DNA of 25,018 nt, from UHGV virus genome UHGV-0289694, one strand, 5' to 3'. Below, piece by piece: positions 854 through 15,513 of the stretch; the stretch's first letter is position 1; every line of letters begins with the position of its first letter. Under the pieces are notes generated by a model, which saw only the letters and a list, made by a program, of their open reading frames with translations, had not been told where the DNA came from and made no database searches. This DNA comes from a virus. The position numbers and the translations under genes were made by a program.

Positions 854-1912
854 TCACATACGCATTTCATTTGAGATAGGGAGAATGTGTGTAAACAGAT
901 TTTCAAAATATAGGGCATAATCAGGGATGACGTTACCAGTATTTTTGCTTGCTAGAAAAATATTGGGGTCTTCGTCAATTAAAATATATAGTTCAATGAG
1001 AATGTTTCTTAGCCCCCAAAGCATTTGCTTAAGTTGTTTTTCATCACTATATGAGATAGTTATTGATTCTATATTATGTTTGGGATTCTCAAAAATTATT
1101 AGAAATAGATGTTCTTGGTATTTATAGTCAATCCCAAGTAATCGGCATAGTTCAATTATGTGTGATTCTATTAGTTGCAGATTAGATAATTGGATATCAT
1201 GAGTAGTATTTTTTGATGTAAGGCTTTTGTTTATTTTGTTATAAAGGTGTTTTGTTTTTTTTATGAAGCCATCTTCGACCGTGGTGCTATATCCATTATC
1301 GATTGAAGATGATTTGAATATATTTTTGTAGAGAGTGTAAGGATGAACGACAGATAATTCAATGTATTCCGTGCTTCCATCATTTTTGTTTAATCTTGAT
1401 ATTTTAAAAGCCGGTAGTGTTTTAAAAATATCCGCGTAACTTTTTAGATGTGAGTAATAAGAATCAGTTTTATTCTTTTCAATTACAAGATTGATTTGTT
1501 TTTGTGTTTTTTCAATCTGATTCTCTGTCTGAGTTGTTCTGTGTATATTATTTACTATTGATGCAAGAGGAACAGAAGAAGCTAAAATTAACAATGGTAA
1601 TTTAGAGATATCTAAGAATTGATTAAAGCCTTCTGACGTAAAATCTAAACTGTGACCTTTCCATGCCCAAAGGCCATACAAAATAAACATTTCTAACGGT
1701 ATGATAATTGAAGCTATAAATAATGGCTGCTTTAATAGGTTTTTCTCATTAAGTTTTAACCAGTTGAAATAATAGAATATAACAACCACACCAAGGATAT
1801 GAAATATGCTAAATAAAACAAAGATTCTTGGTCTATTGGTATACACTAAACCTAGTGCAATAATAATAGATATAATGGTATAGGCAATGATTGATGTTAG
1901 TTTAATTTTCAT
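854..1912 (-). CDS. Hypothetical membrane-anchored protein (about 4 N-terminal TM helices plus a ~200-aa soluble C-terminal domain); AT-rich cargo gene between int and att
   Basis: 352-aa ORF; N-terminus is hydrophobic (LTSIIAYTIISIIIALGLVY, IFVLFSIFHILGVVVIFYYF, LFIASIIIPLEMFILYGLWAW, LPLLILASSVPLASIV). Visibly more AT-rich than the neighbouring int. Start codon is 4 nt downstream of the int stop on the same strand. No family recognised. Confidence 0.6.
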   Translation of the reverse strand: MKIKLTSIIAYTIISIIIALGLVYTNRPRIFVLFSIFHILGVVVIFYYFNWLKLNEKNLLKQPLFIASIIIPLEMFILYGLWAWKGHSLDFTSEGFNQFLDISKLPLLILASSVPLASIVNNIHRTTQTENQIEKTQKQINLVIEKNKTDSYYSHLKSYADIFKTLPAFKISRLNKNDGSTEYIELSVVHPYTLYKNIFKSSSIDNGYSTTVEDGFIKKTKHLYNKINKSLTSKNTTHDIQLSNLQLIESHIIELCRLLGIDYKYQEHLFLIIFENPKHNIESITISYSDEKQLKQMLWGLRNILIELYILIDEDPNIFLASKNTGNVIPDYALYFENLFTHILPISNEMRM

Positions 1913-1916
1913 TTTG

Positions 1917-2933
1917 TTAAACCAAAGTATACAAAGGGTTTTTTGTTACAGCATCTTCAAGATGATCCGGAGAAAAGTGAGCGTAAACCATCGTCATTTT
2001 TATGTCAGCATGACCAAGAATATCTCGCAGTACCAGTATATTTCCGCCGTTCATCATAAAATGGCTGGCGAATGTATGGCGCAGTACGTGGGTGCACTGG
2101 CCCTCTGGCAACTCGATGCCGGCTCGCTTTACTGCTCGTTCAAAGGCTTTTCTACATGGCGTGAATAACTTCCCTCTGTTCTTCGGGAGTTCGTCATACA
2201 GTTCCTGTGATATCGGTACTGTTCTGTTTTTCTTGCCTTTGGTCTTTGTATAAGTAATTCGGTATTTCGATATTTGGTGACCCTGCAGGTTTTCTGCTTC
2301 ACTCCATCGTGCACCAGTAGCCAAACATATTTTTGCAATCATTAGTAGGCTGGCATTTTGAGATTCGGCGCAGGCATTAAGCAGGCGTTTGATTTCGTCC
2401 GCGGAAAGAAAAGCTAGCTCACCTTCGGCAATTTTGAAGGTCGGAAGTCCTGCCAGCGGGTTTGGTGCTGACCAGTGTCCTAGTTTTTTTAATGTACCGA
2501 ACACCGATGATAGATTGCGCTGTTCAAGGTTTACCGTGCGGGGCTTAACGGGCGACATAAGCGTGCCATCTTCATTTCGTACTTCACCTTTTAACCGTGC
2601 TTCACGGTATTTCGTAAAGTCACCAGCTGTCAGTTCTGAGGCGATGGGATCGCCTAGACCATTACAGATAATTCTAAGTTTCGCCATGAGGCGCTTGGGG
2701 TCTGCGAGTGTTTGACCATACAGGGAATACCACTGCTCAATTAATTCTGATAGGTGTCGCCGATCTTCCTTTTCCCCCAGCCATGGTTTTTTGTTCACTT
2801 CTTCCATTGTGAAGCTTTCAAAAGCAATGGCTTCGCCTTTCGTAGCAAATTGCTTACGCACGCGCTTGCCATTGCGTCCATTGGGATAGCACTCGCACAA
2901 CCATTTACCGTTTGGCTGTTTTCTGACAGTCAT
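1917..2933 (-). CDS. int: Phage integrase, tyrosine recombinase (P2/186 type)
   Basis: 338 aa; C-terminal catalytic region VLRHTFASHF...LGHADIKMTMVYAHF carries the H-x-x-R and catalytic Tyr signature of tyrosine recombinases; sits next to att and the repressor. Confidence 0.95.
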   Translation of the reverse strand: MTVRKQPNGKWLCECYPNGRNGKRVRKQFATKGEAIAFESFTMEEVNKKPWLGEKEDRRHLSELIEQWYSLYGQTLADPKRLMAKLRIICNGLGDPIASELTAGDFTKYREARLKGEVRNEDGTLMSPVKPRTVNLEQRNLSSVFGTLKKLGHWSAPNPLAGLPTFKIAEGELAFLSADEIKRLLNACAESQNASLLMIAKICLATGARWSEAENLQGHQISKYRITYTKTKGKKNRTVPISQELYDELPKNRGKLFTPCRKAFERAVKRAGIELPEGQCTHVLRHTFASHFMMNGGNILVLRDILGHADIKMTMVYAHFSPDHLEDAVTKNPLYTLV

Positions 2934-2935
2934 GT

Positions 2936-3568
2936 TTAGATACTCTTTATTACTTTGACTGCACGCCCAATAACTTCCACATCATCAGCAGAGCACTCGA
3001 AAGACGCTTCATCTTGATTTACTACAATTTTATTGCCGGGAATCCGCATGATTTTTGCAATAATAATCATTCCATCAATATTGATAAGCCAGAATCCATT
3101 GCTGACTTGTTTAACTGATTTATCGATGAGATAACAATCAGTAGGGGTTTCTAAGAACATCGATTCTTCATAATCTGCAGGTAATATGCTGTGGTCTAGG
3201 AAAATCTCTTCATCAATACTGAGTTGCCCATTTTCCAAGGTTCCTTTAGGAATAGATGGAGTTATGAGTTTGGATAACGGTTTAATTGCTTGTTTGTTCT
3301 CGTTATGAGATCTTTTCTCAGACTCGTATCCTTCTTTCATGCTTCCCTGTCCTGTGGCTAACCAAAGTAACGAAACACCGGTTTCTAGTGCACACTGAAT
3401 TATCCAGTCAGCAGGAAAGCTGTCACGTAACACTCTGTTTGCCATAGTACTTTTTGAGACATTCAGGTGCTCGCTTAATGCCTGCTTAGTTGTGAATCCA
3501 TAAGCCTTAAGCAGCCTCTCAATAGCTGCCTTACCTCCCGTATCGGAACCCATTCTGATGTTTAACAT
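2936..3568 (-). CDS. cI: Immunity repressor CI, 186-type (N-terminal HTH plus C-terminal domain)
   Basis: 210 aa; N-terminal GGKAAIERLLKAYGFTTKQALSEHLNVSKSTMANRV resembles the phage CI repressor N-terminal HTH domain; immediately upstream of int on the same strand and divergent from apl/cII. GGAG Shine-Dalgarno 8 nt before the ATG at 3568. Confidence 0.85.
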   Translation of the reverse strand: MLNIRMGSDTGGKAAIERLLKAYGFTTKQALSEHLNVSKSTMANRVLRDSFPADWIIQCALETGVSLLWLATGQGSMKEGYESEKRSHNENKQAIKPLSKLITPSIPKGTLENGQLSIDEEIFLDHSILPADYEESMFLETPTDCYLIDKSVKQVSNGFWLINIDGMIIIAKIMRIPGNKIVVNQDEASFECSADDVEVIGRAVKVIKSI

Positions 3569-3964: not shown

Positions 3965-4474
3965 ATGTTTGATTACAAGATTTCCAAACATCCGCATTTC
4001 GATGAAGCCTGTAGGGCTTTTGCACTGCGTCACAACCTGGTGCAACTGGCAGAACGTGCAGGCATGAATGTGCAGATTCTGCGGAACAAGCTGAACCCAG
4101 CTCAGCCTCATTTATTAACCGCACCAGAAATTTGGTTGCTTACCGATCTGACTGAAGATTCAACGCTGGTAGATGGTTTTCTGGCACAGATTCATTGTCT
4201 GCCATGTGTTCCGATTAATGAGGTGGCAAAAGAGAAACTGCCACATTACGTCATGAGTGCAACCGCAGAGATCGGGCGTGTTGCTGCTGGTGCGGTATCT
4301 GGCGATGTAAAAACCAGTGCAGGTCGTCGTGATGCTATCAGCAGTATTAACTCTGTAACACGACTGATGGCGCTGGCTGCTGTTTCATTGCAGGCTCGTT
4401 TACAGGCTAACCCTGCGATGGCGAGTGCAGTTGATACCGTGACTGGCCTTGGTGCTTCATTCGGTTTGCTGTGA
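3965..4474 (+). CDS. cII: CII-like lysogeny establishment regulator (186 CII type)
   Basis: 169 aa; the sequence [45 protein letters not shown]... closely resembles 186 CII as I recall it (HTH near the N-terminus); position directly after apl. Confidence 0.8.
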
Positions 4475-5836: not shown

Positions 5837-6063
5837 TGGCTGATGCAATGGATCTCGTACAGCAGCGCGTTGAAGAAGAACGCCAGCGCCACATCCGTGC
5901 TGCCCGTGCCAAAACGCCGGGCGTGTCCCGCGTGCTTTGCGTTGAGTGTGAAGCGCCAATTCCGCCAGCACGCCGCCGTGCCATTCCGGGTGTGCAACTT
6001 TGCATTACCTGTCAGGAAATCGCAGAGCTGAAAGGCAAACATTACAACGGAGGTGCTGTATGA
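5836..6063 (+). CDS. TraR/DksA-family C4 zinc-finger protein
   Basis: 75 aa; CVEC-x17-CITC four-cysteine motif near the C-terminus, typical of phage TraR/DksA-like proteins; start/stop overlap with both neighbours. Confidence 0.8.
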   Translation: MADAMDLVQQRVEEERQRHIRAARAKTPGVSRVLCVECEAPIPPARRRAIPGVQLCITCQEIAELKGKHYNGGAV

Positions 6064-6917
6064 GCACCATCCTGAAATGGGCGGGAAATAAAACCGCCAT
6101 TATGTTCGAACTGAAAAAACATCTTCCTGCTGGTCCGCGACTGGTTGAACCTTTCGCGGGTTCCTGTGCAGTGATGATGGAGACGGATTACCCCAGCTAT
6201 CTTGTTGCGGATATTAATCCTGATTTAATCAACCTCTATAAAAAGGTTGCTGCTGATTGTGAGGCGTTTATATCTCGTGCCAGAGCTTTATTTGAGGAAG
6301 CAAACAGAGAGGTGGCTTATTACAACATAAGGCAGGAGTTTAATTACTCCACTGAAATTACTGATTTCATGAAAGCGGTATATTTTCTGTATCTCAATCG
6401 TCACGGTTACCGTGGTTTATGTCGCTATAACAAGAGCGGGCATTTCAACATTCCCTACGGTAATTATAAAAATCCGTATTTCCCTGAAAAAGAAATTCGC
6501 GCATTTGCAGAAAAAGCCCAGCGAGCAACGTTTATCTGCGCCAGCTTTGATGAAACGCTGGCGATGTTGAAGGCGGGGGATGTGGTGTATTGCGATCCGC
6601 CGTATGACGGTACGTTTTCCGGCTATCACACTGATGGTTTCACTGAAGATGACCAGTATCACCTGGCATCCGTTCTTGAACATCGGTCATCAGAAGGACA
6701 TCCGGTCATTGTTTCTAACAGTGACACATCCCTGATCCGTTCGCTGTATCGCAATTTTACTCACCACTATATCAAGGTAAAACGCAGCATCGGTGTGGCA
6801 GCTGGCGAGGGTAAATCAGCAACAGAAATCATTGCTGTTTCCGGGCCGCGCTGCTGGGTGGGATTTGATTATTCGCGTGGCGTGGATAGTTCTGCCGTGT
6901 ACGGAGTACGTGCATGA
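6060..6917 (+). CDS. dam: DNA adenine methyltransferase (Dam-like, N6-adenine)
   Basis: N-terminal ILKWAGNK...EPFAGSCAV (AdoMet-binding motif I) and the DPPY catalytic motif ([10 protein letters not shown]); GGAGG RBS; ATGA overlaps with TraR-like upstream and gene A downstream. Confidence 0.9.
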
Positions 6918-9307
6918 GCCATGCCGATATGAACAACTGCTGCGGCTTTAACGAGGTTGCCGCAGCGTTCTCATGGAACAGCCCGAAAAAGGCCATTAAC
7001 CCTTATCTGGACCCGGCGGAAGTTGCGCCGGTTTCTGCGCTTTCAAACCTGATCACTCTGTACGCTGCCGATAACGAGCAGGAACAGTTGCGCCGCGAGG
7101 CACTGAGTGATCAGGTCTGGGAGCGTTATTTTTTTAATGAATCACGTGATCCTGTCCAGCACGAAATGGAGCAGGATAAGCTCATTAGCCGGGCAAAGCT
7201 GGCGCATGAGCAGCAGCGTTTTAATCCGGATATGGTCATTCTGGCGGACGTCAACGCCCAGCCTTCTCATATCAGCAAGCCGCTTATGCAACGTATTGAA
7301 TACTTCAGCAGCCTGGGCAGGCCAAAGGCTTATTCCCGCTATTTACGTGAGACGATTAAGCCATGTCTGGAACGACTGGAGCATGTACGCGACAGCCAGC
7401 TATCTGCATCTTTTCGTTTTATGGCAAGCCATGTAGGGCTGGACGGCCTGCTGATCCTGCCTGAAATGAGTCAGGATCAGGTGAAACGCCTGTCTACCCT
7501 TGTCGCTGCGCATATGAGCATGTGCCTTGATGCAGCTTGTGGTGATTTGTATGCCACCGATGACGTTAAGCCAGAAGAAATCCGCAAGACATGGGAAAAG
7601 GTGGCAGCGGAAACCCTGCGTCTGGATGTCATCCCGCCTGCGTTTGAGCAACTCCGTCGGAAAAGAAACCGCCGTAAACCCGTGCCCTATGAACTCATTC
7701 CGGGTTCGCTGGCGCGTATGTTGTGCGCCGACTGGTGGTACCGGAAATTATGGAAAATGCGTTGCGAATGGCGGGAAGAGCAGTTGCGTGCTGTCTGCCT
7801 GGTCAGCAAAAAAGCATCTCCCTATGTCAGCTATGAAGCCGTGATGCATAAACGTGAGCAGCGCCGCAAGTCACTGGAGTTTTTCCGTTCTCATGAACTG
7901 GTGAACGAAGAGGGCGACACGCTGGATATGGAAGACGTGGTAAACGCCAGCAGCAGCAACCCGGCGCACCGCCGCAATGAGATGATGGCCTGTGTTAAAG
8001 GTCTGGAGCTTATCGCGGAAATGCGCGGTGACTGCGCCGTTTTCTACACCATTACCTGTCCGTCACGTTTCCATTCCACGCTCAATAACGGCAGACCAAA
8101 CCCAACCTGGACAAATGCGACGGTAAGACAAAGCAGCGATTATCTGGTCGGCATGTTTGCTGCATTTCGTAAGGCGATGCACAAAGCCGGGTTGCGCTGG
8201 TATGGCGTGCGGGTGGCTGAGCCGCATCATGACGGTACAGTTCACTGGCACCTGTTGTGTTTCATGCGCAAAAAAGACCGCCGCGCCATTACTGCATTGT
8301 TGCGTAAATTTGCCATCCGTGAAGACCGCGAGGAACTGGGTAATAACACTGGTCCACGCTTTAAATCTGAGCTGATAAACCCGCGCAAAGGAACGCCGAC
8401 AAGCTACATCGCGAAATACATCAGTAAGAACATTGACGGGCGTGGTCTGGCTGGCGAGATCAGCAAGGAAACGGGTAAATCCCTGCGTGATAACGCTGAA
8501 TACGTTAATGCCTGGGCGTCTCTGCATCGTGTTCAGCAATTCCGCTTCTTTGGCATTCCGGGGCGTCAGGCTTACCGTGAACTGCGATTGCTGGCTGGTC
8601 AGGCGGCAAGGCAACAGGGTGACAAAAAAGCAGGTGCGCCGGTACTGGATAACCCGCGCCTTGATGCCATTCTGGCTGCAGCTGATGCTGGTTGCTATGC
8701 CACCTACATCATGAAGCAGGGCGGCGTACTGGTTCCCCGTAAATATCACCTCATCAGAACCGCTTATGAAATCAACGAAGAGCCGACCGCCTATGGCGAT
8801 CACAGTATTCGTATTTATGGCATCTGGTCACCCATTGCAGAGGGCAAGATCTGCACTCATGCAGTGAAGTGGAAAATGGTTCGTAAGGCCGTTGACGTTC
8901 AGGAGGCGGCAGCCGACCAGGGCGCTTGCGCCCCTTGGACTCGTGGCAATAACTGTCCCCCTGTTGAAAATTTGAACCAGACAGGGGGGGAGCTGCCCGA
9001 TATTAAAACCATGAATGAGCAGGAACTGCAGGATTACCTACACAATATGGGCCAGAAGGAACGCCGGGAGCTGACAGCCAGGTTGAGACTGGTAAAACCG
9101 AAGCGGAAAAAAGCATACATACAGAGTATTTCGGAGCAACAGCGCCTGCAGCTTGAGGCAGAACTCAGCTCCCGGGGATTTAATGCAAGCGATGCTGAAG
9201 TGGATCTACTTTTACGTGGCGGCAGCATTCCGTCAGGTGCCGGGCTGCGTATTTTTTACCGCAAACACCGGCTGCAGGAAGATGACAAATGGCGGCAGTG
9301 GTACTGA
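6914..9307 (+). CDS. A: Rolling-circle replication initiator (P2 gpA-like HUH endonuclease)
   Basis: 797 aa; HUH-type motif VHWHLLCF and active-site tyrosine motif [12 protein letters not shown]; size and position match P2 A / 186 A. Confidence 0.9.
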
Positions 9308-9469: not shown

Positions 9470-9658
9470 ATGCAGGACTATCTTTTGGAGTCGTTGAAGC
9501 TCCAGCGCATTGATTTTTTTATTAAGCTTGTAGCGGCTAGTGAGTGTAACGACGAAGAAAAGCGGCTGGCTATCCAGTGGGTTTCGGAGTTGACCGATGA
9601 GCTTATGGCGAAGATTCGCGCTCATGAATACAACCGCTCAATGGATCTTCCTGGTTAG
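9470..9658 (+). CDS. Small SOS-controlled protein, possibly a Tum-like antirepressor
   Basis: 62 aa; GGAGGGA RBS; first ORF downstream of the LexA-boxed promoter. 186-type phages carry a LexA-repressed tum gene at this map position, but I did not recognise Tum or DinI sequence similarity. Confidence 0.4.
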   Translation: MQDYLLESLKLQRIDFFIKLVAASECNDEEKRLAIQWVSELTDELMAKIRAHEYNRSMDLPG

Positions 9659-9799
9659 TTTTTCAAAGCTGAAAACAACCGAGTGAAAGTTACGACGCTT
9701 GAACTTTTAACTTGGGTTACAATCAGAACACTCGTTTTCGTTCACAAACGAACCTGCCATACCCTAATGTGGTAATGGCGTTCAATTTTTACTAAATGG

Positions 9800-10360
9800 T
9801 TGCAAATGCTTGTTATGAATCATGTAATGTTAGATATAGAAACATTGGATGTTGAAAAAACGGCTTATATCCTTTCGGTTGGTGCGGCTTTCTTCGTGCC
9901 GGAGACTGGCGAGGTTGGTCCGGGTTTCTATCAAGTTATTTCGCTTGATCATGAACAAGCAGGCAGAACCATTGCCCCCTCCACTGTAAAGTGGTGGATG
10001 TATCAAAGTTCTGAAGCTAAAAACGAAAATTTTGGTGGCACTAAGGACCTTTTAGACGTTCTGAATGAATTTGTGGCGTTTGTTCTTCATAATCGTAATG
10101 GCCGAGTAAAAGTGTGGGGAAACGGGAAAGAGTTCGACTGCACTATCATGCATCATGCCCTGTCACAGGCAGGTCTGGAGTGCCCATGGTCATTCAGAGA
10201 TACTCTTGACGTCAGAACCATCTTAGCGCTTGGTGAAAGCAAAGGAATTTTTTCTCATGCTGACAAAAAGTTCACTGGCATCAGGCACACAGCATTCGAT
10301 GATGTTTTATTTCAGATCGCACTGGTTTCTCATATCTATATGAATTTAAATAAAAAATAA
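9800..10360 (+). CDS. DnaQ-like DEDDh 3'-5' exonuclease (start may be at 9815 or 9827)
   Basis: Exo I motif MLDIETLD (D-x-E), Exo II WGNGKEFDCTIM, Exo III HTAFDDV (H-x4-D); ~180 aa single-domain protein; lower GC than phage core genes. Confidence 0.8.
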   Translation: MQMLVMNHVMLDIETLDVEKTAYILSVGAAFFVPETGEVGPGFYQVISLDHEQAGRTIAPSTVKWWMYQSSEAKNENFGGTKDLLDVLNEFVAFVLHNRNGRVKVWGNGKEFDCTIMHHALSQAGLECPWSFRDTLDVRTILALGESKGIFSHADKKFTGIRHTAFDDVLFQIALVSHIYMNLNKK

Positions 10361-10375
10361 ATATAGGACTTAGCT

Positions 10376-11287
10376 ATGGATTGCTTAGATGTAACCAATT
10401 GGACTGAGCTAGATGTTTTCGCACAATATCCTGTTGGTGCTCGCTCTAAGGCATTGGTTATTTCCCCTGATGTAGCACCCCATGGTATCAAAGCATCGTG
10501 GCCGTATCTTTTTAAGAGAAGTATTAAAAAGTATCCAGATCAATTTTGGTGTGAGATCGTTGCCTACAGGATTGGATTGAAGCTTGGTTTTGATGTCCCC
10601 AAAGCAGTTCCATCGGTAAAGACTAATGATTTGGGGCATACGTTTTGCGGGGCCCTCATTGAGTGGTTTCATCATAAAGATTATGAGAAATTTGCTCCCG
10701 CTGGTGATTACTTTGTCCGAAGAGATCCAAATTTTGATCGCGAGAAAGGAGCTCAGCATTCCCTTGAAGGGCTGAGGATTATCGCGAAAGCTCTTAAAGT
10801 TGACTATGTTGAGTGGTTGGAGGACATGGCTCTCTTTGACGCTGTGATAGGTAATACAGATAGACATCAAGAAAATTGGGGGTTTGTCTTTTCACCTTTA
10901 GCCAGCGAGTGTCAGCTTGCACCATTTTTCGATAATGGTACGAGCTTATGTTACGAACGCTTTCCGGAGCATGTTGCCGATTGGACCGATCATAGACTCA
11001 GGGAGCATGTTGGCCGGGGAAGGCATCATTTGCGTAAGACTCTGGGCAAAGATGAGTATCAGAGATTAGGTCATTTAGAGTTCATCAAAGAACTTTGTGA
11101 TAAAAAAGAAGCATTAAAACAGCGGGTAGCTGAAAAACTGGCTCTTTTGAACCATGATTTTTGGGAGTCAACTTTTGCGGAGTTGACGGAAATAAACTGC
11201 CCTGTTCCGCTGACTAGAGAACGTGCTGCATGGATTGTTCGTGTAACAAACATGCGTATTGAACTGATTAAAGGTGTTACTTCATGA
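10376..11287 (+). CDS. HipA-like Ser/Thr kinase core (HipT-like, lacking the HipA N-terminal subdomain)
   Basis: P-loop-like PVGARSKALV (cf. HipA VAGAQEKTAL), catalytic motif VIGNTDRHQEN (cf. HipA GATDGHAKN; Asp at nt 10859), Mg-binding LAPFFDNG (cf. HipA TPFYD); 303 aa; 15-nt gap after the exonuclease gene. Confidence 0.8.
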   Translation: MDCLDVTNWTELDVFAQYPVGARSKALVISPDVAPHGIKASWPYLFKRSIKKYPDQFWCEIVAYRIGLKLGFDVPKAVPSVKTNDLGHTFCGALIEWFHHKDYEKFAPAGDYFVRRDPNFDREKGAQHSLEGLRIIAKALKVDYVEWLEDMALFDAVIGNTDRHQENWGFVFSPLASECQLAPFFDNGTSLCYERFPEHVADWTDHRLREHVGRGRHHLRKTLGKDEYQRLGHLEFIKELCDKKEALKQRVAEKLALLNHDFWESTFAELTEINCPVPLTRERAAWIVRVTNMRIELIKGVTS

Positions 11288-11988
11288 CTATCTTAATAGA
11301 AAACATTCCCATGCCCAGTAGGCTCTTACTGACATGGCAACCGGTTGACGGAGGCTCTCGCTATGTCGTTGGTGAGCTTCTTCAAGATGAGTCTGAAGGC
11401 TACGAGTTTAATTATCTTACTGATAGCAAAGATTTTGCTAAAGCTAGGGATAACGGCTTTCGCGGTTTTCCTGCTTTTGATATAAAAGTTGCGACTCATC
11501 GCAAAGACGTTATGCAAACCTTTTCAAGAAGGTTACCCTCCAGGAAAAGAGAAGATTTTGACGATTACTTGCTGACGTTTCGTCTTCCTGCTGATTTTAG
11601 AGAGAATGACTTCGTTTTGCTCGCATGTACTGGCGGAAAAGTTGCTAGTGATGGTTTTTATTTTGTCCCAGACTTGTCTTCTGTTCGGCCACCTTTCGAT
11701 TACGTCATGGAGGTCGCTGGAACGAGGCACATGATCAAGGAAGGGCGTCTAGCGCTTGATGAGATATCAATTGGTGATGAAGTCATATTGCGGAATGAAG
11801 ATACCAATACGGTTGATCCGCTGGCCATATTGGTTACGAAAAACGACAATCATCTCGGATATGTCAACAAGGCATTGTGCGCCGCATTACGTGATCTAAG
11901 TAAAAACCATGATGTCAGTGGAGTGGTCGTACGTAAAAATGGCTCTTCGGATAGGCCTTTGATTTATGCAAAAGTATCCGTTCGGTGA
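11284..11988 (+). CDS. Two-domain protein: HipA N-terminal-like (HipS-like) domain fused to a HIRAN-like domain
   Basis: ATGA start/stop overlap with the kinase gene. N-terminal LLLTWQPVDGGSRYVVGELL...FSRRLP...LLACTGGKVASDGFYFVP parallels HipA residues 1-100 (KLVTWMNNQRVGEL...FDNLLPD...IGRDSVGAVTLIP). C-terminal DEVILRNEDTNTVDPLAILVTKNDNHLGYVNKALCAALRDL...VSGVVV fits the HIRAN pattern (L-x-L-x-R-E-x-x-N-x-x-D-x-x-A-I-x-V ... G-Y/H-hydrophobic ... A-x-x-L-A-x-x-hydrophobic-D). Domain calls are from motif memory, not a search. Confidence 0.6.
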   Translation: MTILIENIPMPSRLLLTWQPVDGGSRYVVGELLQDESEGYEFNYLTDSKDFAKARDNGFRGFPAFDIKVATHRKDVMQTFSRRLPSRKREDFDDYLLTFRLPADFRENDFVLLACTGGKVASDGFYFVPDLSSVRPPFDYVMEVAGTRHMIKEGRLALDEISIGDEVILRNEDTNTVDPLAILVTKNDNHLGYVNKALCAALRDLSKNHDVSGVVVRKNGSSDRPLIYAKVSVR

Positions 11989-12089
11989 AGCATGTTTATT
12001 CATGCTTGCCGGTAATAAGGTGCTCTTGATTTAGTGCATGTCTATGCCGCATAAATCCGCATGATCGTTTGATGATCGTTTTAGCTGAG

Positions 12090-12117
12090 GCCCGCCAGGA
12101 ATGGCGGGCTTTTGCTT
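12090..12117 (+). terminator. Rho-independent terminator ending the accessory operon
   Basis: GCCCGCCA-GGAA-TGGCGGGC (8-bp GC-rich stem) followed by TTTTGCTT. Confidence 0.65.
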
Positions 12118-12158
12118 ATGTCATGCAGGCGCATGAAAACTGCTACATAAAGCGGGCA

Positions 12159-12177
12159 GGCGTGGCGGGGATACGAG
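12159..12177. other. Putative cos site (cohesive-end sequence)
   Basis: GGCGTGGCGGGGATACGAG; the first 13 nt match the 186/P2 cohesive-end sequence as I recall it (GGCGTGGCGGGGAAAGCAT), and the location between the A-side accessory region and Q is as expected. From memory only. Confidence 0.35.
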
Positions 12178-12382
12178 CGCGCACTCTGGGGTAAAATGGT
12201 CAAAATCCACCGCAATTTACTGGCTCAGGAACGTAGTTAGTTTTGTAGGTATAAACGGCTCTCACGTTAGATAGGCATGCAGGATGTGTTAAATCGTTGT
12301 GATGAAGTTAACGGTGACTGAGACAGTTTAGGTCTAAGATATAACTTCTGGGTTAGTTAAAAATTGGAATAGTAAGACATTT

Positions 12383-12679
12383 ATGAAAACTACTTATAGC
12401 TATGATTTTCAATATATGCGCAAAGGTCAGGATCGCCCTGATGATGATGGAGAGGTTGTAGGGTGTAATTCAGAAGACAACTCGCTTTTGATGCTTCCAA
12501 ATGTGGGAGACTACGTAACAATTACGAATAAGGGTGGGCGTGCTCAATTTGATGGGCGGGTGAAAACAAGGCTTTTCAATTACCTACGCATTGCTGATGG
12601 TCATGTTCATTGCTCCATTTGCATTGTAGTTGAGGAAGTTGATATGGACTCCGTATGGGGGGCACTAATTAAAGAATAA
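12383..12679 (+). CDS. Hypothetical small protein between cos and Q
   Basis: 98-aa ORF, AT-rich, weak RBS, followed by a terminator hairpin; no motif recognised. It contains Asp-rich PDDDGEVVGC and a C-terminal HCSIC pair. Confidence 0.45.
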   Translation: MKTTYSYDFQYMRKGQDRPDDDGEVVGCNSEDNSLLMLPNVGDYVTITNKGGRAQFDGRVKTRLFNYLRIADGHVHCSICIVVEEVDMDSVWGALIKE

Positions 12680-12709: not shown

Positions 12710-13750
12710 TTACTCAGAAATATCTAAGTTGTAAGATTCAAAGCAAATCACTTTTTCACCTAGCCAGTTGTTCAGCTCTTGCAGCCGCTTTTGCAGTGGC
12801 ATCAGTTCATTGCGGACAAACACTCGACTAGCCTTCTCCACATCCCCAAACCCCCCGACATTATTAGGCATTATCCCCATCATTTGTGGCGGCACACGAT
12901 GCGCCGCCATCATGTCGTCCCGGCTCACGTTCTTGATATTCAGGAACTCATCCTTCGCCGCCACTTCTGACAACGGGATAATCTGAAGCCCGTCCTTTTT
13001 ACCGTTAGGCGAGTACATAAACAGGTTACGGAAGTTACCAGGACCTTTGGCGCTTTTCATCGCATTGCGGAGGTTGTTCACATCCTCCTGGTTCTGCGCA
13101 GCATCGGTCATGTACATGATGAAGCCTGCATGACTGCCGTTAATGTAATACTTGCGGCGGAACAGCGTGGCGGACTCGTTGAGCAGAGCTGACGGAATGG
13201 CAGAAAGATAACCGGGCAGGCCGTAGATCTCCTGGTTAATGTCCGGTTCCATCAGATGAAAAATGCTGCCTTTCGTGAACTGATACGGCTGGGTTGTCAT
13301 ACCGTATTGCACAAACCAGTAGGTATCCAGGTCTAACCCGCGTCGGGTGTATTTTGCCAGTGCAGGCTCAAGGGCGATAACTTCACCGAAGCGGTTCGTG
13401 CGTTTCTCCAGGTAGGCGTTACCAAAAACCAGATAGTCCTGCACAAAACGCGAAAAAGCCTGCTGGCTGAGCAGCGGGTGAGGGATGTAGGTGCTGGTCA
13501 GAATGTTGCATTTCACTGCAATTGGTGAACTGTGATGCACGGCAGCGCGGAAGGTGCGCGCCAGTCCGTCAAAGCTGACGGGAGGCTCATACCAGCGATC
13601 TGTCTGTACGCATTCCACATAGTCCAGCAGTTCGCGGCGGTCAAGTACTGGAATGGGATCACCGAAGCTGAATGCTTCGGCTGAAGCTTGGCTTTTATGC
13701 TGGATCTGGTTCGTCGCCGCAGCGCATTTTTTTTTACTCTTTCCCATCAA
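12710..13750 (-). CDS. Q: Portal protein (P2 gpQ-like)
   Basis: 346 aa; size, position downstream of the large terminase on the minus strand with start/stop overlap, and overall resemblance to P2 Q. Confidence 0.9.
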   Translation of the reverse strand: MMGKSKKKCAAATNQIQHKSQASAEAFSFGDPIPVLDRRELLDYVECVQTDRWYEPPVSFDGLARTFRAAVHHSSPIAVKCNILTSTYIPHPLLSQQAFSRFVQDYLVFGNAYLEKRTNRFGEVIALEPALAKYTRRGLDLDTYWFVQYGMTTQPYQFTKGSIFHLMEPDINQEIYGLPGYLSAIPSALLNESATLFRRKYYINGSHAGFIMYMTDAAQNQEDVNNLRNAMKSAKGPGNFRNLFMYSPNGKKDGLQIIPLSEVAAKDEFLNIKNVSRDDMMAAHRVPPQMMGIMPNNVGGFGDVEKASRVFVRNELMPLQKRLQELNNWLGEKVICFESYNLDISE

Positions 13751-15513
13751 AAAATCTCCACAATATTGCTGGTATTGGCGGACTCGCCCTGCAGCGGTTC
13801 GTTAAACAGTGCGTGCATTGTTGCCCAGGCCAGATCGGCATGGCTGGCTTCTTCGCTGCGGCTTGCTTCATAGGTCGGGCGGTTGCCACTGGCAGTGGTA
13901 GCGCGACGGATTGCCATAAATGACTGCGCAATGTCGGTGTGCCCGGCGTCAAACTCCAGACGGCGGTGGCTGATAATGTCGTAGGCCTTGAGTACCAGGG
14001 CGTTTTTAACGTTGGGGTTGTAGACAAACTCCCTGACGGCAGGAAAAAACGCTTTCACGTTCTCGTAAACCCCGTGACCGACGCCGGTCGAGTCGATACC
14101 GATATAGGTCACGTTATACTGTTCGGTCAGTTTTTTGATGGCGTCAGCCTGGGCGCGGAAGTCCATCCCGCGCCACTGGTGACGCTCAAGAATGCGGAAC
14201 TTACCACCCGGCACGGCTGGCGGAGCCACCACCACGCATCCGGCACTGTCGCCGTTCTGCGTACCTTTTGCCGGGTCATAACCGATCCACACTTCCCGCC
14301 AGCCAAACGGGCGCAGGGCCAGTGCATGAAAGTCGGTCCAGACTTCCCAGCTGTCCACCATGCACGCCTGCAGTTCGCTGAGCGGGAACACGGACGCGAG
14401 ATCGTCCACGAACTCGCACATCAGCAGGTTCTGGTATTCGTCCGGGCTGTACTCCATGCGCAGCTGGTCGAGGTCGAACAGGTTACAGCCGCCGCGCACC
14501 GCATCTTCCACGGTGACTATCTGGCGGTATTGCCCGTCTGCGCACAGTAGGCCGGGGGCCAGATTGCTGTGGGACAGGTCGATGTCCACCTTGTCAGCTT
14601 TGTTGCGTCCACGGTTGAACAGCGCACCGGACCAGAACGGATAAGCACTGTGGGTCAGGCTGGATGGCGTGGAAAAATAGGTTTGTCGCCATTTCTTGTG
14701 AATAGCCATACCGGAAGCCACTTTGCGCAACTCCTGGAATTTCGGTATCCAGAAATATTCATCCAGATACAGGTTGCCGTGGTAACTCTGCGCCGTGCGG
14801 GCATTGGTGCCGAGGAAGTAAAGCGTGGCCCCGTTAGGAAGCACCATCGGATCGCCTTTCAGCTCCACCTCGACTTCTTTGGCGAAGTCGATGATGTACT
14901 GCTTAAAGACGTGAGCCTGTGCCTTACTGGCAGAAAGGAAAATCTGGTTACGTCCGGTAAGCAGGGCGTCAATCAGGGCTTCACGGGCAAAGTAAAAGGT
15001 CGCGCCGATCTGGCGTGACTTCAGCAGGTTGCGGATGCGGTTGGTTTTTCCGGCTTCCCACCAGTGGCGCTGGTAGTTGAACATGGAGGAATGGAAGATT
15101 TCTTCCAGTTTATCTATCTGTTCATCGGTGAAAACATTCTTTTCCGGCTGACGGCGCGGGCCTTTGTTGCGGTTGGCGACGTTAGGGTTTAAGTCGGCTT
15201 CGTTGCCGCCATTGTTAAACTTGCCGATCCGCGCGTGGCGCTCCGACTGGCGCGCCAGCAGGTCAATTTCTTTGAAATCTTTCCCTTCTTTGTGCTCCTT
15301 CATAATGAGCTGGCAGTAACGTGCGGCGGTGGTGAGCTGCATCTGATCCAGCGGCCCATAGTCACCCCACTTGTCGCGTTTCTTCCAGCTGTGAACGGTT
15401 GCAACTTTCTCGCCCAGCATTTCAGCAATGCGGGCTACGCGGTATCCCTGAAAGTACAGCAGCATGGCCTGCCGACGGGGATCGAGATCTGCGGATGTCA
15501 GTGTGGTGTTCAT
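13747..15513 (-). CDS. P: Terminase large (ATPase) subunit (P2 gpP-like)
   Basis: 588 aa; N-terminal HTH-like region followed by an ATPase/nuclease body; divergent from O as in P2. Confidence 0.9.
   Translation of the reverse strand: MNTTLTSADLDPRRQAMLLYFQGYRVARIAEMLGEKVATVHSWKKRDKWGDYGPLDQMQLTTAARYCQLIMKEHKEGKDFKEIDLLARQSERHARIGKFNNGGNEADLNPNVANRNKGPRRQPEKNVFTDEQIDKLEEIFHSSMFNYQRHWWEAGKTNRIRNLLKSRQIGATFYFAREALIDALLTGRNQIFLSASKAQAHVFKQYIIDFAKEVEVELKGDPMVLPNGATLYFLGTNARTAQSYHGNLYLDEYFWIPKFQELRKVASGMAIHKKWRQTYFSTPSSLTHSAYPFWSGALFNRGRNKADKVDIDLSHSNLAPGLLCADGQYRQIVTVEDAVRGGCNLFDLDQLRMEYSPDEYQNLLMCEFVDDLASVFPLSELQACMVDSWEVWTDFHALALRPFGWREVWIGYDPAKGTQNGDSAGCVVVAPPAVPGGKFRILERHQWRGMDFRAQADAIKKLTEQYNVTYIGIDSTGVGHGVYENVKAFFPAVREFVYNPNVKNALVLKAYDIISHRRLEFDAGHTDIAQSFMAIRRATTASGNRPTYEASRSEEASHADLAWATMHALFNEPLQGESANTSNIVEIF

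What the first reader, a model, noticed from the sequence alone, without database searches (positions are those of the whole stretch)
9800..11988. Three-gene cargo operon in the A-to-cos accessory slot: DEDDh exonuclease, HipA-like kinase, HipS-like/HIRAN protein
The slot between replication gene A and cos is where P2 carries tin and old, a known variable hotspot for anti-phage cargo. Here it holds three tightly packed, lower-GC genes: a small DnaQ-like 3'-5' exonuclease (D-x-E, FD and H-x4-D motifs), a HipA-family kinase core (GNTDRHQEN catalytic loop, PFFD metal-binding motif), and a protein joining a HipA N-subdomain-like module to a HIRAN-like DNA 3'-end-binding domain. Gaps are 15 nt and an ATGA overlap, so the three are almost certainly one transcript, ended by a strong terminator at 12090-12117. 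A toxin-type kinase combined with two nucleic-acid-end-recognising modules is not a combination I can place in any characterised defence or toxin-antitoxin system. It looks like a candidate abortive-infection or counter-defence module.
Basis: partly seen in the sequence, partly recalled or inferred. Interest (0 to 1): 0.9.

Follow-up and report, generated by a model that had tools for sequence, protein, structure and literature searches.

The report
Exonuclease plus HipI-HipN kinase cargo
A P2-like prophage carries, in its known variable cargo slot, a three-gene operon (a small 3'-5' exonuclease, a HipA-type toxin kinase, and a HipS-HIRAN partner protein) that is real and well conserved but already catalogued as an untested candidate toxin-antitoxin or defence module, so it is a good experimental target, not a new discovery.

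Summary
Three co-oriented genes (exonuclease 9815/9800-10360, kinase 10376-11287, HipS-HIRAN protein 11284-11988) lie between replication gene A and cos in a P2-like prophage. They have a 15-nt gap and an ATGA overlap, lower GC than their flanks, and a strong terminator at 12090-12117. Profile searches and two high-confidence structure models confirm every domain call.

The combination is not unplaced. The kinase and HipS-HIRAN pair is the 'hipIN' module of Gerdes et al. 2021 and PADLOC candidate PDC-M03. The exact trio is listed in Table S5 of Rousset et al. 2022 (P2 hotspot). A sister version with kinase and HIRAN fused was cloned there as 'Exonuclease + HipA' and appears among tested but not validated systems.

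My census shows HipI-HipN is a self-contained two-gene module in many contexts. The exonuclease accompanies it only in one P2-borne subfamily, where the genes co-diverge as a unit. The exonuclease family is otherwise widespread without Hip.

The most likely function is a toxin-antitoxin-type abortive-infection module. HipN would restrain the kinase and sense DNA 3' ends, and the exonuclease would tune that signal. This is inference; no phenotype is known.

The parts
9659..9814 (+). Spacer upstream of the exonuclease gene; presumed promoter/leader region of the operon (unverified)
   Evidence: It is conserved among close relatives (window, N1420, L076) but not in L037. No sigma-70 consensus was found. 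Rousset et al. cloned the sister system 'with native promoter'.
9815..10360 (+). Rv2179c-like DEDDh 3'-5' exonuclease gene (longest ORF starts at TTG 9800; likely start ATG 9815)
   Evidence: Pfam PF16473 E=8.5e-51 over 176/177 profile positions; phrog_255 'exonuclease' E=1.5e-60. DEDDh residues are conserved in all 28 aligned homologues. dN/dS is 0.19-0.24. The start codon is conserved.
10376..11287 (+). hipI: HipT-like core Ser/Thr kinase of the HipA family, lacking N-subdomain 1 (303 aa)
10850..10879 (+). Kinase catalytic loop GNTDRHQENW (aa 159-168)
   Evidence: N160, D162, R163, H164, N167 and W168 are invariant. The loop aligns to the catalytic loops of CtkA, HipA and HipT.
10922..10939 (+). 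Kinase metal-binding motif PFFDNG (aa 183-188)
   Evidence: D186 and G188 are invariant. The motif aligns to APIFDCG of CtkA and PWYD of HipA.
11284..11988 (+). hipN: two-domain HipS-like + HIRAN protein (234 aa), putative antitoxin/sensor
   Evidence: PADLOC PDC-M03B E=5.8e-37; phrog_8026 E=1.7e-83. AF2 model pLDDT 95, pTM 0.90. dN/dS is 0.04-0.11. The kinase gene is directly upstream in every locus with room.
11284..11673 (+). HipS-like (HipA N-subdomain-1-like) domain of HipN, aa ~1-130
11695..11985 (+). HIRAN domain of HipN, aa ~138-234
12090..12117 (+). Intrinsic terminator ending the operon
   Evidence: An 8-bp G+C-rich stem, GGAA loop and TTTTGCTT tail. dG -25.2 kcal/mol, z=-5.2, with 0 of 200 shuffles folding as well.
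12159..12177 (.). cos-like cohesive-end sequence marking the right boundary of the slot
   Evidence: GGCGTGGCGGGGATACGAG, compared with the P4/P2 cos GGCGAGGCGGGGAAAGCAC seen in the cloned sequences of Rousset Table S2. The surrounding 12032-12182 is about 90% conserved in many P2-like phages.

Best explanation
This is accessory cargo in the A-to-cos/Q hotspot of a P2-like prophage. It consists of a hipI-hipN kinase module (PADLOC candidate PDC-M03) transcribed together with an upstream Rv2179c-like DEDDh 3'-5' exonuclease.

Shown:
- The operon anatomy.
- HipI is an intact HipT-like core kinase.
- HipN joins a HipS fold to a HIRAN fold.
- All three genes are under purifying selection.
- The cassette is variably present.
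- Within one P2-borne Hip subfamily the exonuclease and Hip genes co-diverge as a unit, in both split and fused forms.

Inferred by analogy:
- The HIRAN domain binds free DNA 3'-OH ends, or short 3' fragments, that appear when a foreign phage replicates or when DNA is degraded. This relieves the inhibition.
- The freed kinase phosphorylates an essential translation factor (aminoacyl-tRNA synthetases are the targets of HipA and HipT). Growth stops and the infection aborts.
- The exonuclease removes 3'-ended nucleic acid and so sets the activation threshold. It may protect the lysogen, or P2's own rolling-circle replication, from self-triggering.
For: - Domain identities.
- Operon structure.
- Hotspot position and variable occupancy. 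The split trio occurs in 5-6 of 5,426 complete E. coli genomes and the fused version in 61, while about 1,200-2,200 genomes match only the flanks. Rousset Table S5 agrees.
- The kinase is always directly upstream of HipN.
- The exonuclease is directly upstream (10-20 nt) of Hip in every P2-like slot with this Hip subfamily: 17 viral contigs plus L001, L006, L007, L028 and L076.
- The branching inside clades A and B is identical in the exonuclease, kinase and HipN trees.
- Two residues beside the ExoI and ExoIII motifs are specific to Hip-linked exonucleases in both clades.
- dN/dS is 0.04-0.24 for all three genes.
- Precedent for HipS as the antitoxin of a small Hip kinase: PMC10627512.
- Precedent for a HipA-like kinase with a non-HipB partner acting as a toxin-antitoxin-type defence: DS-6/HipAD/PDC-M66.
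- An independent parallel: NrnC-like DEDD deoxydinucleotidases lie adjacent to HipA + HIRAN genes in Actinomycetes and Clostridia.
Against: - No phenotype is known. The sister construct 'Exonuclease + HipA' (pFR108; native promoter; MG1655; 8 coliphages) is listed only among 'additional tested systems', not among validated ones.
- HipI-HipN occurs without any exonuclease, or any other conserved neighbour, in about 30 non-P2 loci. One of these, L004, lies inside the exonuclease-linked subfamily, so the exonuclease is not required for the module.
- One P2-like locus (L057) carries a HipIN of another clade with no exonuclease within 743 bp upstream.
- The exonuclease family is abundant on its own in lambdoid and other phages, in chromosomes, and in the early operon of some P2-like phages.
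- Toxicity, neutralisation, the DNA-end trigger and the kinase target are all inferred.
Confidence: 0.55

Rival explanations
1. There are two independent cargos that happen to be neighbours. The exonuclease would be a general phage accessory enzyme (recombination, replication or anti-host function) with no functional tie to the self-contained two-gene hipIN module. The two would travel together only because they were captured once as a block.
For: - The exonuclease family is found alone in 497 phage records. Examples are the position between SSB and Abc2 in mEp235 and the position next to Ea22 in lambdoid phages.
- It occurs in Serratia and Gibbsiella chromosomes.
- It occurs upstream of gpA in some P2-like phages.
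- HipIN stands alone elsewhere.
- PADLOC models PDC-M03 as two genes.
- The Hip subfamily that carries the exonuclease is monophyletic, which is compatible with a single capture.
Against: - The linkage has survived divergence down to 37-40% exonuclease identity and a fusion or fission of the Hip genes, always with a 10-20 nt spacing. The tree topologies are congruent.
- In E. coli the exonuclease is never found in the slot without Hip.
- Two signature residues are shared by both Hip-linked clades.
- A different DEDD nuclease family shows the same adjacency in Gram-positive bacteria.
Confidence: 0.3
2. This is a plain toxin-antitoxin (addiction) module that stabilises the prophage or modulates host growth and persistence. 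It would have no anti-phage role.
For: - HipBA and HipBST are classical toxin-antitoxin systems.
- The related construct gave no reported defence.
- HipIN also sits among chromosomal housekeeping genes, for example next to metH in two unrelated genomes.
Against: - The P2 slot is strongly enriched for validated anti-phage systems.
- HipIN lies next to type I and type ISP restriction systems and in prophage moron positions.
- A related kinase system, DS-6/HipAD, defends against phage.
- A panel of 8 phages with native-promoter expression in K-12 is a weak negative.
Confidence: 0.2
3. This is a counter-defence module used by P2 during its own lytic growth. The kinase would inactivate a host defence or translation component, and the exonuclease would destroy a nucleic-acid signal.
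For: Phage-encoded kinases and nucleases can be anti-defence factors (general knowledge). The operon follows the early replication gene A on the same strand.
Against: - The same two-gene module is common in bacterial chromosomes and next to restriction systems.
- The HipS-like partner implies self-inhibition typical of toxin-antitoxin logic.
- The slot's known cargo (old, tin and validated systems) is expressed from the lysogen for defence.
Confidence: 0.05

Closest known systems
hipIN (HipI kinase + HipN) and HipL of Gerdes, Baerentsen & Brodersen 2021 (mBio, PMC8262856)
   Same: [quoted passage not shown] The fused relatives in phage 899, L006 and L007 have the HipL arrangement of kinase, HipS-like and HIRAN.
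   Different: That paper is purely bioinformatic and, in the passages I searched, mentions neither prophages nor an associated exonuclease. I did not place the window's kinase in their tree, so the assignment to clade HipI rests on architecture.
PADLOC phage defence candidate PDC-M03
   Same: Both proteins hit the PDC-M03A and PDC-M03B models strongly (E=1.6e-34 and 5.8e-37). PDC-M03 is described as two genes, HipA- and HIRAN-domain proteins.
   Different: PDC-M03 is a candidate without published validation that I could find, and it has no exonuclease component (no PADLOC hit for the exonuclease).
P2 hotspot loci 'DUF5051 + HipA_C + HIRAN' and the cloned 'Exonuclease + HipA' (pFR108) of Rousset et al. 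2022 (PMC9122126)
   Same: The trio, slot and RefSeq proteins (WP_050515810, WP_021523856, WP_021523857) match those of strain N1420, which are 93-96% identical to the window's proteins. The fused two-gene version was cloned from a P2 locus.
   Different: The tested construct is the fused clade-B version (about 40-46% identical), not this split version. It is listed under 'additional tested systems', so no activity was reported.
HipBST of E. coli O127 and Legionella
   Different: There is no HipB gene here. The gene order is kinase first. The HipS-like domain is fused to HIRAN. Whether an equivalent of the inhibitory Trp65 exists was not tested.
diDNase + HipA + HIRAN clusters of Actinomycetes/Clostridia (Mortensen et al. 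2025, PMC11706625)
   Same: A DEDD-superfamily 3'-5' nuclease gene lies directly adjacent to HipA-domain and HIRAN-domain genes, on mobile elements. The functional link was left open.
   Different: Those nucleases are NrnC homologues specific for DNA dinucleotides. The window's enzyme matches only Pfam Rv2179c-like PF16473. The hosts and mobile elements also differ.
DS-6 / HipAD / PDC-M66 (HipA-like kinase + DUF3037 protein)
   Same: A HipA-family kinase toxin is neutralised by a non-HipB partner predicted to bind DNA. Kinase-dependent anti-phage defence has been validated.
   Different: The partner is DUF3037/DUF1829, not HipS-HIRAN, and no exonuclease is involved.
P2 old and tin
   Same: They occupy the same slot in phage P2 and are expressed from the lysogen to exclude other phages. 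In N1420 an OLD-like ATP-dependent nuclease sits next to the trio.
   Different: The proteins and mechanisms are unrelated.

Membership tests
HipA-family Ser/Thr kinase (Pfam HipA_C) | Profile match above the curated cutoff and the HipA/PI3-4K-like kinase fold | tested here: met
HipA-family Ser/Thr kinase (Pfam HipA_C) | Catalytic loop Asp/Asn and metal-binding Asp present | tested here: met
   In GNTDRHQENW, D162 and N167 are invariant, and D186 in FFDNG is invariant, across 37-38 homologues. These motifs align to the CtkA, HipA and HipT motifs.
HipA-family Ser/Thr kinase (Pfam HipA_C) | Kinase activity and growth-arresting toxicity | not testable with these tools
   This needs expression and phosphorylation assays.
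HipT/HipI-type small kinases (no N-subdomain 1) | About 300 aa, with only the core kinase aligning to HipA | tested here: met
HipN (HipS-like + HIRAN putative antitoxin) | N-terminal domain with the HipS / HipA N-subdomain-1 fold | tested here: met
HipN (HipS-like + HIRAN putative antitoxin) | C-terminal HIRAN domain | tested here: met
HipN (HipS-like + HIRAN putative antitoxin) | Encoded directly downstream of the kinase gene (hipIN order) | tested here: met
   ATGA overlap in the window. The same order is seen in every related locus with room.
HipN (HipS-like + HIRAN putative antitoxin) | Neutralises the kinase; binds DNA 3' ends | not testable with these tools
   This is inferred from HipBST and from HLTF HIRAN structures. 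The tools cannot model complexes.
PADLOC PDC-M03 | Adjacent hits to both PDC-M03A and PDC-M03B models | tested here: met
   E=1.6e-34 and E=5.8e-37 on adjacent genes.
Validated anti-phage defence system | Reduces phage plaquing or burst when expressed | not testable with these tools
   The only experimental data point found is for the fused relative pFR108, which is not among the validated systems.
Rv2179c-like DEDDh 3'-5' exonuclease (PF16473, formerly DUF5051) | Full-length profile match and the four acidic residues plus His of DEDDh | tested here: met
   172.6 bits against a cutoff of 27, covering profile positions 1-176 of 177. D, E, D, H and D are conserved in all 28 aligned sequences.
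NrnC-like deoxydinucleotidase (diDNase) | Membership of the NrnC / DEDDy branch described by Mortensen et al. | tested here: not met
   The only Pfam hit is PF16473, with no NrnC-type family at E<=0.1. The paper defines diDNases as NrnC homologues. Substrate length preference is untested.
P2 A-to-Q hotspot cargo (Rousset et al. 2022) | Located between gene A and cos/Q, with different gene content in related prophages | tested here: met
   gpA is at 6914-9307, cos at about 12159, and portal at 12710-13750 on the minus strand. Related prophages carry DinI, Fic, OLD-like and other genes instead.

The most novel reading that the evidence does not exclude
The exonuclease is an integral third component of a signalling circuit. 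The HIRAN domain of HipN would read the cellular pool of free DNA 3' ends or very short 3'-OH oligonucleotides as an infection or damage signal that controls a Hip kinase. A dedicated DEDD 3'-5' exonuclease would clear that ligand to set the threshold. The same logic would have arisen at least twice, with unrelated DEDD subfamilies: Rv2179c-like in P2-like phages of Proteobacteria, and NrnC-like diDNases in Actinomycetes and Clostridia. That would be a new sensor, erasure-enzyme and kinase-effector design for abortive infection.
Probability: 0.25. Interest if true: 0.7.

Novelty: already known. Interest (0 to 1): 0.35.

Why it matters
No HipS-HIRAN-partnered kinase has been characterised experimentally. 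Its toxicity, target, trigger and biological role are all unknown, although the family is large: 239 clusters at 50% identity with E<=1e-30, and 581 kinase clusters.

The P2-borne version comes with a co-inherited 3'-5' exonuclease, and a different DEDD nuclease shows the same adjacency in Gram-positive bacteria. Together these give a concrete, testable hypothesis about what HIRAN senses and how the kinase is kept silent. If that hypothesis is right, it would link DNA-end or oligonucleotide sensing to translation shut-off.

As it stands, the locus is a well-documented, already catalogued candidate. It is useful for annotation (hipIN / PDC-M03 plus an accessory exonuclease) and for choosing experiments, but it is not a new kind of system.

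Tried and rejected
- A single-sequence PDB search with the exonuclease returned only a spurious IgG match. The Pfam result carries that assignment.
- The simple terminator scan missed the real hairpin. Direct reading and folding confirmed it.
- I looked for another nuclease, such as an NrnC-like one, beside HipIN outside P2-like phages. The neighbours were MetH, RNase G, SpoU, peptidase U32, restriction systems, CI repressors and integrases, with no conserved partner.
- I tested whether Hip-linked exonucleases are monophyletic. They form two strongly supported clades, but the deep nodes have under 60% bootstrap support, so single and double recruitment cannot be told apart. The Hip trees favour one origin.
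It kept the 80 matches best for the first sequence, nearly all non-P2, so it says little about the slot itself.
- The first tree script timed out.
- The 2026 NAR paper on P2/P4 hotspots does not mention this cargo in its main text, and no supplements are held for it.
- I considered an exonuclease-as-P2-core-gene reading and rejected it. Most P2-like prophages lack the exonuclease.
Full report
**1. What is in the sequence**

The window is a P2-like prophage. From left to right it encodes:
- integrase (1917-2933, minus strand), CI repressor (2936-3568, minus strand) and CII (3965-4474);
- a Dam methylase (6000-6917) and replication protein A (6914-9307);
- after the region of interest, portal (12710-13750, minus strand) and terminase (13747-15513, minus strand).

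Three + strand ORFs lie between gene A and the portal gene, at 9800-10360, 10376-11287 and 11284-11988. They are separated by 15 nt and by an ATGA overlap.

GC is 0.41-0.44 across 9500-12500, against 0.51-0.55 in gene A and up to 0.62 in the structural genes.

A hairpin follows 100 nt after the last stop codon: GCCCGCCA-GGAA-TGGCGGGC at 12090-12109, then TTTTGCTT. Its dG is -25.2 kcal/mol with z = -5.2. The pattern scan missed it.

At 12159-12177 is GGCGTGGCGGGGATACGAG. This closely resembles the P2/P4 cos sequence visible in the cloned sequences of Rousset et al..

The likely start of the first gene is ATG 9815, not TTG 9800. ATG AAT CAT is conserved even in a copy only 52% identical.

**2. 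The three proteins**

*Exonuclease.* The match to Pfam Rv2179c-like (PF16473, the former DUF5051) has E = 8.5e-51 and runs end to end. It also matches PHROG 255 'exonuclease'. The DEDDh residues are intact in it and in all 27 aligned homologues.

*Kinase.*
- It passes the HipA_C cutoff.
- Its catalytic loop and metal-binding motif align with CtkA, HipA and HipT.
- The key residues are invariant in 37-38 homologues.
- It is therefore a HipT-like small kinase without N-subdomain 1.

*HipN.* The model has pLDDT 95 and pTM 0.90.

All three genes are under purifying selection, with dN/dS 0.04-0.24 against two diverged copies.

**3. It is already catalogued**

- The kinase and HipS-HIRAN pair has the 'hipIN' organisation described bioinformatically by Gerdes et al. 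2021. In that scheme HipN is the putative antitoxin, and HipL is the fused kinase-HipS-HIRAN form.
- PADLOC holds the pair as candidate system PDC-M03 (A: E = 1.6e-34; B: E = 5.8e-37). PDC-M03 is described elsewhere as HipA- plus HIRAN-domain proteins.
- Table S5 of Rousset et al. 2022, the paper that defined the P2 hotspot, lists loci 'hypothetical + DUF5051 + HipA_C + HIRAN + ...'. The accessions are WP_050515810, WP_021523856 and WP_021523857. These are the proteins of E. coli N1420, which are 93-96% identical to the window's.
- Their Table S2B lists pFR108, 'Exonuclease + HipA': P2 locus, two genes, E. coli TA255. The methods say validated systems are in S2A and 'additional tested systems' in S2B. 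The fused sister version was therefore cloned with its native promoter and challenged with eight coliphages, and it was not reported as active.
- Mortensen et al. 2025 found that a third of the NrnC-like deoxydinucleotidase genes of Actinomycetes and Clostridia sit directly beside HipA- and HIRAN-domain genes. They left the link open.

**4. Census: which genes belong together**

I used a HipN alignment to retrieve 24 genomic and 27 viral loci.

- *Kinase and HipN.* The kinase gene is directly upstream of HipN wherever the contig allows.
- *HipIN outside P2-like phages.* The pair stands alone. Its neighbours are MetH (in two unrelated genomes), RNase G, SpoU, peptidase U32, type I and ISP restriction systems, CI repressors, integrases and a filamentous prophage. 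No nuclease accompanies it there.
- *HipIN in P2-like slots.* The Rv2179c-like exonuclease is always 10-20 nt upstream of Hip. This holds for 17 viral contigs, N1420, a Serratia genome, a metagenome-assembled genome, the isolated phage 899 (identical to Yersinia phage GMG73) and L076.
- *Complete E. coli genomes.* The pattern is all or nothing. Five or six genomes have the split trio, 61 have the exonuclease plus the fused gene at 99% identity or more, and all other P2-like prophages match only the flanks. The stored part of Rousset's table agrees: DUF5051 appears 31 times, 8 of them with HipA_C, and the passages shown for the rest read 'DUF5051 + HIRAN'.
- *The exonuclease without Hip.* The family is common on its own. 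It occurs in 497 phage records, for example between SSB and Abc2 in mEp235. It occurs as a chromosomal gene in Serratia and Gibbsiella. It occurs upstream of gene A in some P2-like phages.

**5. Phylogeny**

The Hip-linked exonucleases fall into two clades:
- clade A accompanies the split genes (bootstrap 93) and includes the window;
- clade B accompanies the fused gene (bootstrap 100).

The two clades are no more similar to each other (37-41% identity) than to standalone enzymes (41-48%), and the deep nodes are unresolved.

In the kinase and HipN trees, clades A and B plus one exonuclease-less marine locus (L004) form a single subfamily, with bootstrap 96 and 79. Inside A and inside B the branching is identical in all three trees. 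The cassette has therefore been inherited as a unit through a fusion or fission of the Hip genes.

L057 is a P2-like locus without an exonuclease in the 743 bp available upstream. It carries a HipIN from a different clade.

Only two alignment columns separate all 13 Hip-linked exonucleases from all 15 standalone ones. One is a Val immediately after the ExoI motif. The other is Phe or Tyr in place of His four residues after the ExoIII Asp. This hints at specialisation.

**6. Most likely mechanism**

Shown: the anatomy, the folds, the intact catalytic sites, the selective constraint, the co-inheritance, and the variable hotspot cargo.

Inferred:
- HIRAN, a module that binds DNA 3' ends in HLTF (structures matched), senses 3'-OH ends or short fragments generated during infection.
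- The released kinase phosphorylates an essential translation factor, as HipA does with GltX and HipT with TrpS. The result is growth arrest and abortive infection.
- The exonuclease, which removes nucleotides from 3' ends, would clear the ligand and set the threshold. This may matter especially for a phage that itself replicates by a nick-primed rolling circle.

There is a validated precedent for a Hip-type kinase with a non-HipB partner acting in defence: DS-6, also called HipAD or PDC-M66.

Against the model: there is no phenotype, the related construct gave a negative result in a limited assay, and HipIN clearly works, or at least persists, without the exonuclease elsewhere.

The main rival is that the exonuclease is an independent phage accessory gene captured once together with hipIN. 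A plain addiction module and a counter-defence role are less likely.

**7. Verdict**

The locus is already known at catalogue level as hipIN, PDC-M03 and Rousset Table S5, and it has no established function. My added findings are:
- the exonuclease linkage is restricted to one P2-borne Hip subfamily;
- within that subfamily the genes co-diverge;
- the linkage carries a small residue signature;
- it parallels the diDNase association in Gram-positive bacteria.

This makes a three-component DNA-end-sensing circuit a reasonable hypothesis, but an unproven one.

Noticed in passing
window 854-1912 (- strand): A 352-aa ORF with very low GC (about 0.29-0.30) lies immediately beside the integrase at the prophage end. 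It has no Pfam or PADLOC match and matches only PHROG 17460 of unknown function. It may be a second accessory (moron) gene at the attachment-site end.
   Followed up: partly
window 12383-12679 (+ strand): A 98-aa ORF lies between cos and the portal gene (phrog_12676, unknown function; no Pfam or PADLOC hit). The same DNA is found at 96-98% identity in other E. coli P2-like prophages that lack the trio (H32, H33). It is therefore separate cargo on the other side of cos. In strain N1420 this position holds an OLD-like ATP-dependent nuclease.
   Followed up: partly
window 9470-9658 (+ strand; longest ORF from GTG 9353): This small ORF (phrog_698) directly after gene A is conserved in P2-like prophages whatever the cargo that follows; for example, it precedes DinI in strain T28R. 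It is a fixed first gene of the slot and is not part of the trio.
   Followed up: partly
window 9815-10360; alignment of 28 exonucleases: Two residues distinguish all 13 Hip-linked exonucleases from 15 standalone ones. One is Val right after ExoI (MLDIETL[D/G]V). The other is Phe or Tyr instead of His in ExoIII (H-x4-D-x3-[F/Y]-Q). The standalone P2-like early-operon enzymes P0072 and P0073, which are the neighbour-joining sister of clade B, keep His.
   Followed up: partly
L011 2079-6014 and L078 106-3945: In two unrelated genomes (a Nitrosomonadales metagenome-assembled genome and Thiomicrorhabdus indica) the HipI-HipN pair sits immediately downstream of metH. This suggests a recurrent insertion site.
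   Followed up: no
L079 1-5621: In Vibrio harveyi a HipI-HipN pair lies next to Zot and other genes typical of a filamentous (inovirus-type) prophage. That is a further kind of mobile element carrying the module.
   Followed up: no
L074 2396-8145 and L145 530-5708: Some P2-like phages carry an Rv2179c-like exonuclease (249 aa, with an N-terminal extension) in the early operon upstream of gene A. It is followed by DUF7415, a Dam-type methylase and a cytosine methylase, and has no adjacent Hip gene.
   Followed up: partly
L002 (E. coli EC101, NZ_CP196707.1 1-7911): This is the closest E. coli match to the window (98.4% identity). Its record is cut at the origin and annotated with many frameshifted genes, including CI, CII, gene A and the exonuclease. 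That looks more like assembly error than a decayed prophage.
   Followed up: no
Rousset et al. 2022 Table S5: Other P2 hotspot loci contain a different HIRAN arrangement, 'DarT + hypothetical + HIRAN + Macro'. HIRAN domains therefore recur in this slot with unrelated toxin partners.
   Followed up: no
window 6000-6917 / 6914-9307: A D12-class Dam methylase gene overlaps the start of replication gene A by 4 nt, as in the related E. coli prophages.
   Followed up: no
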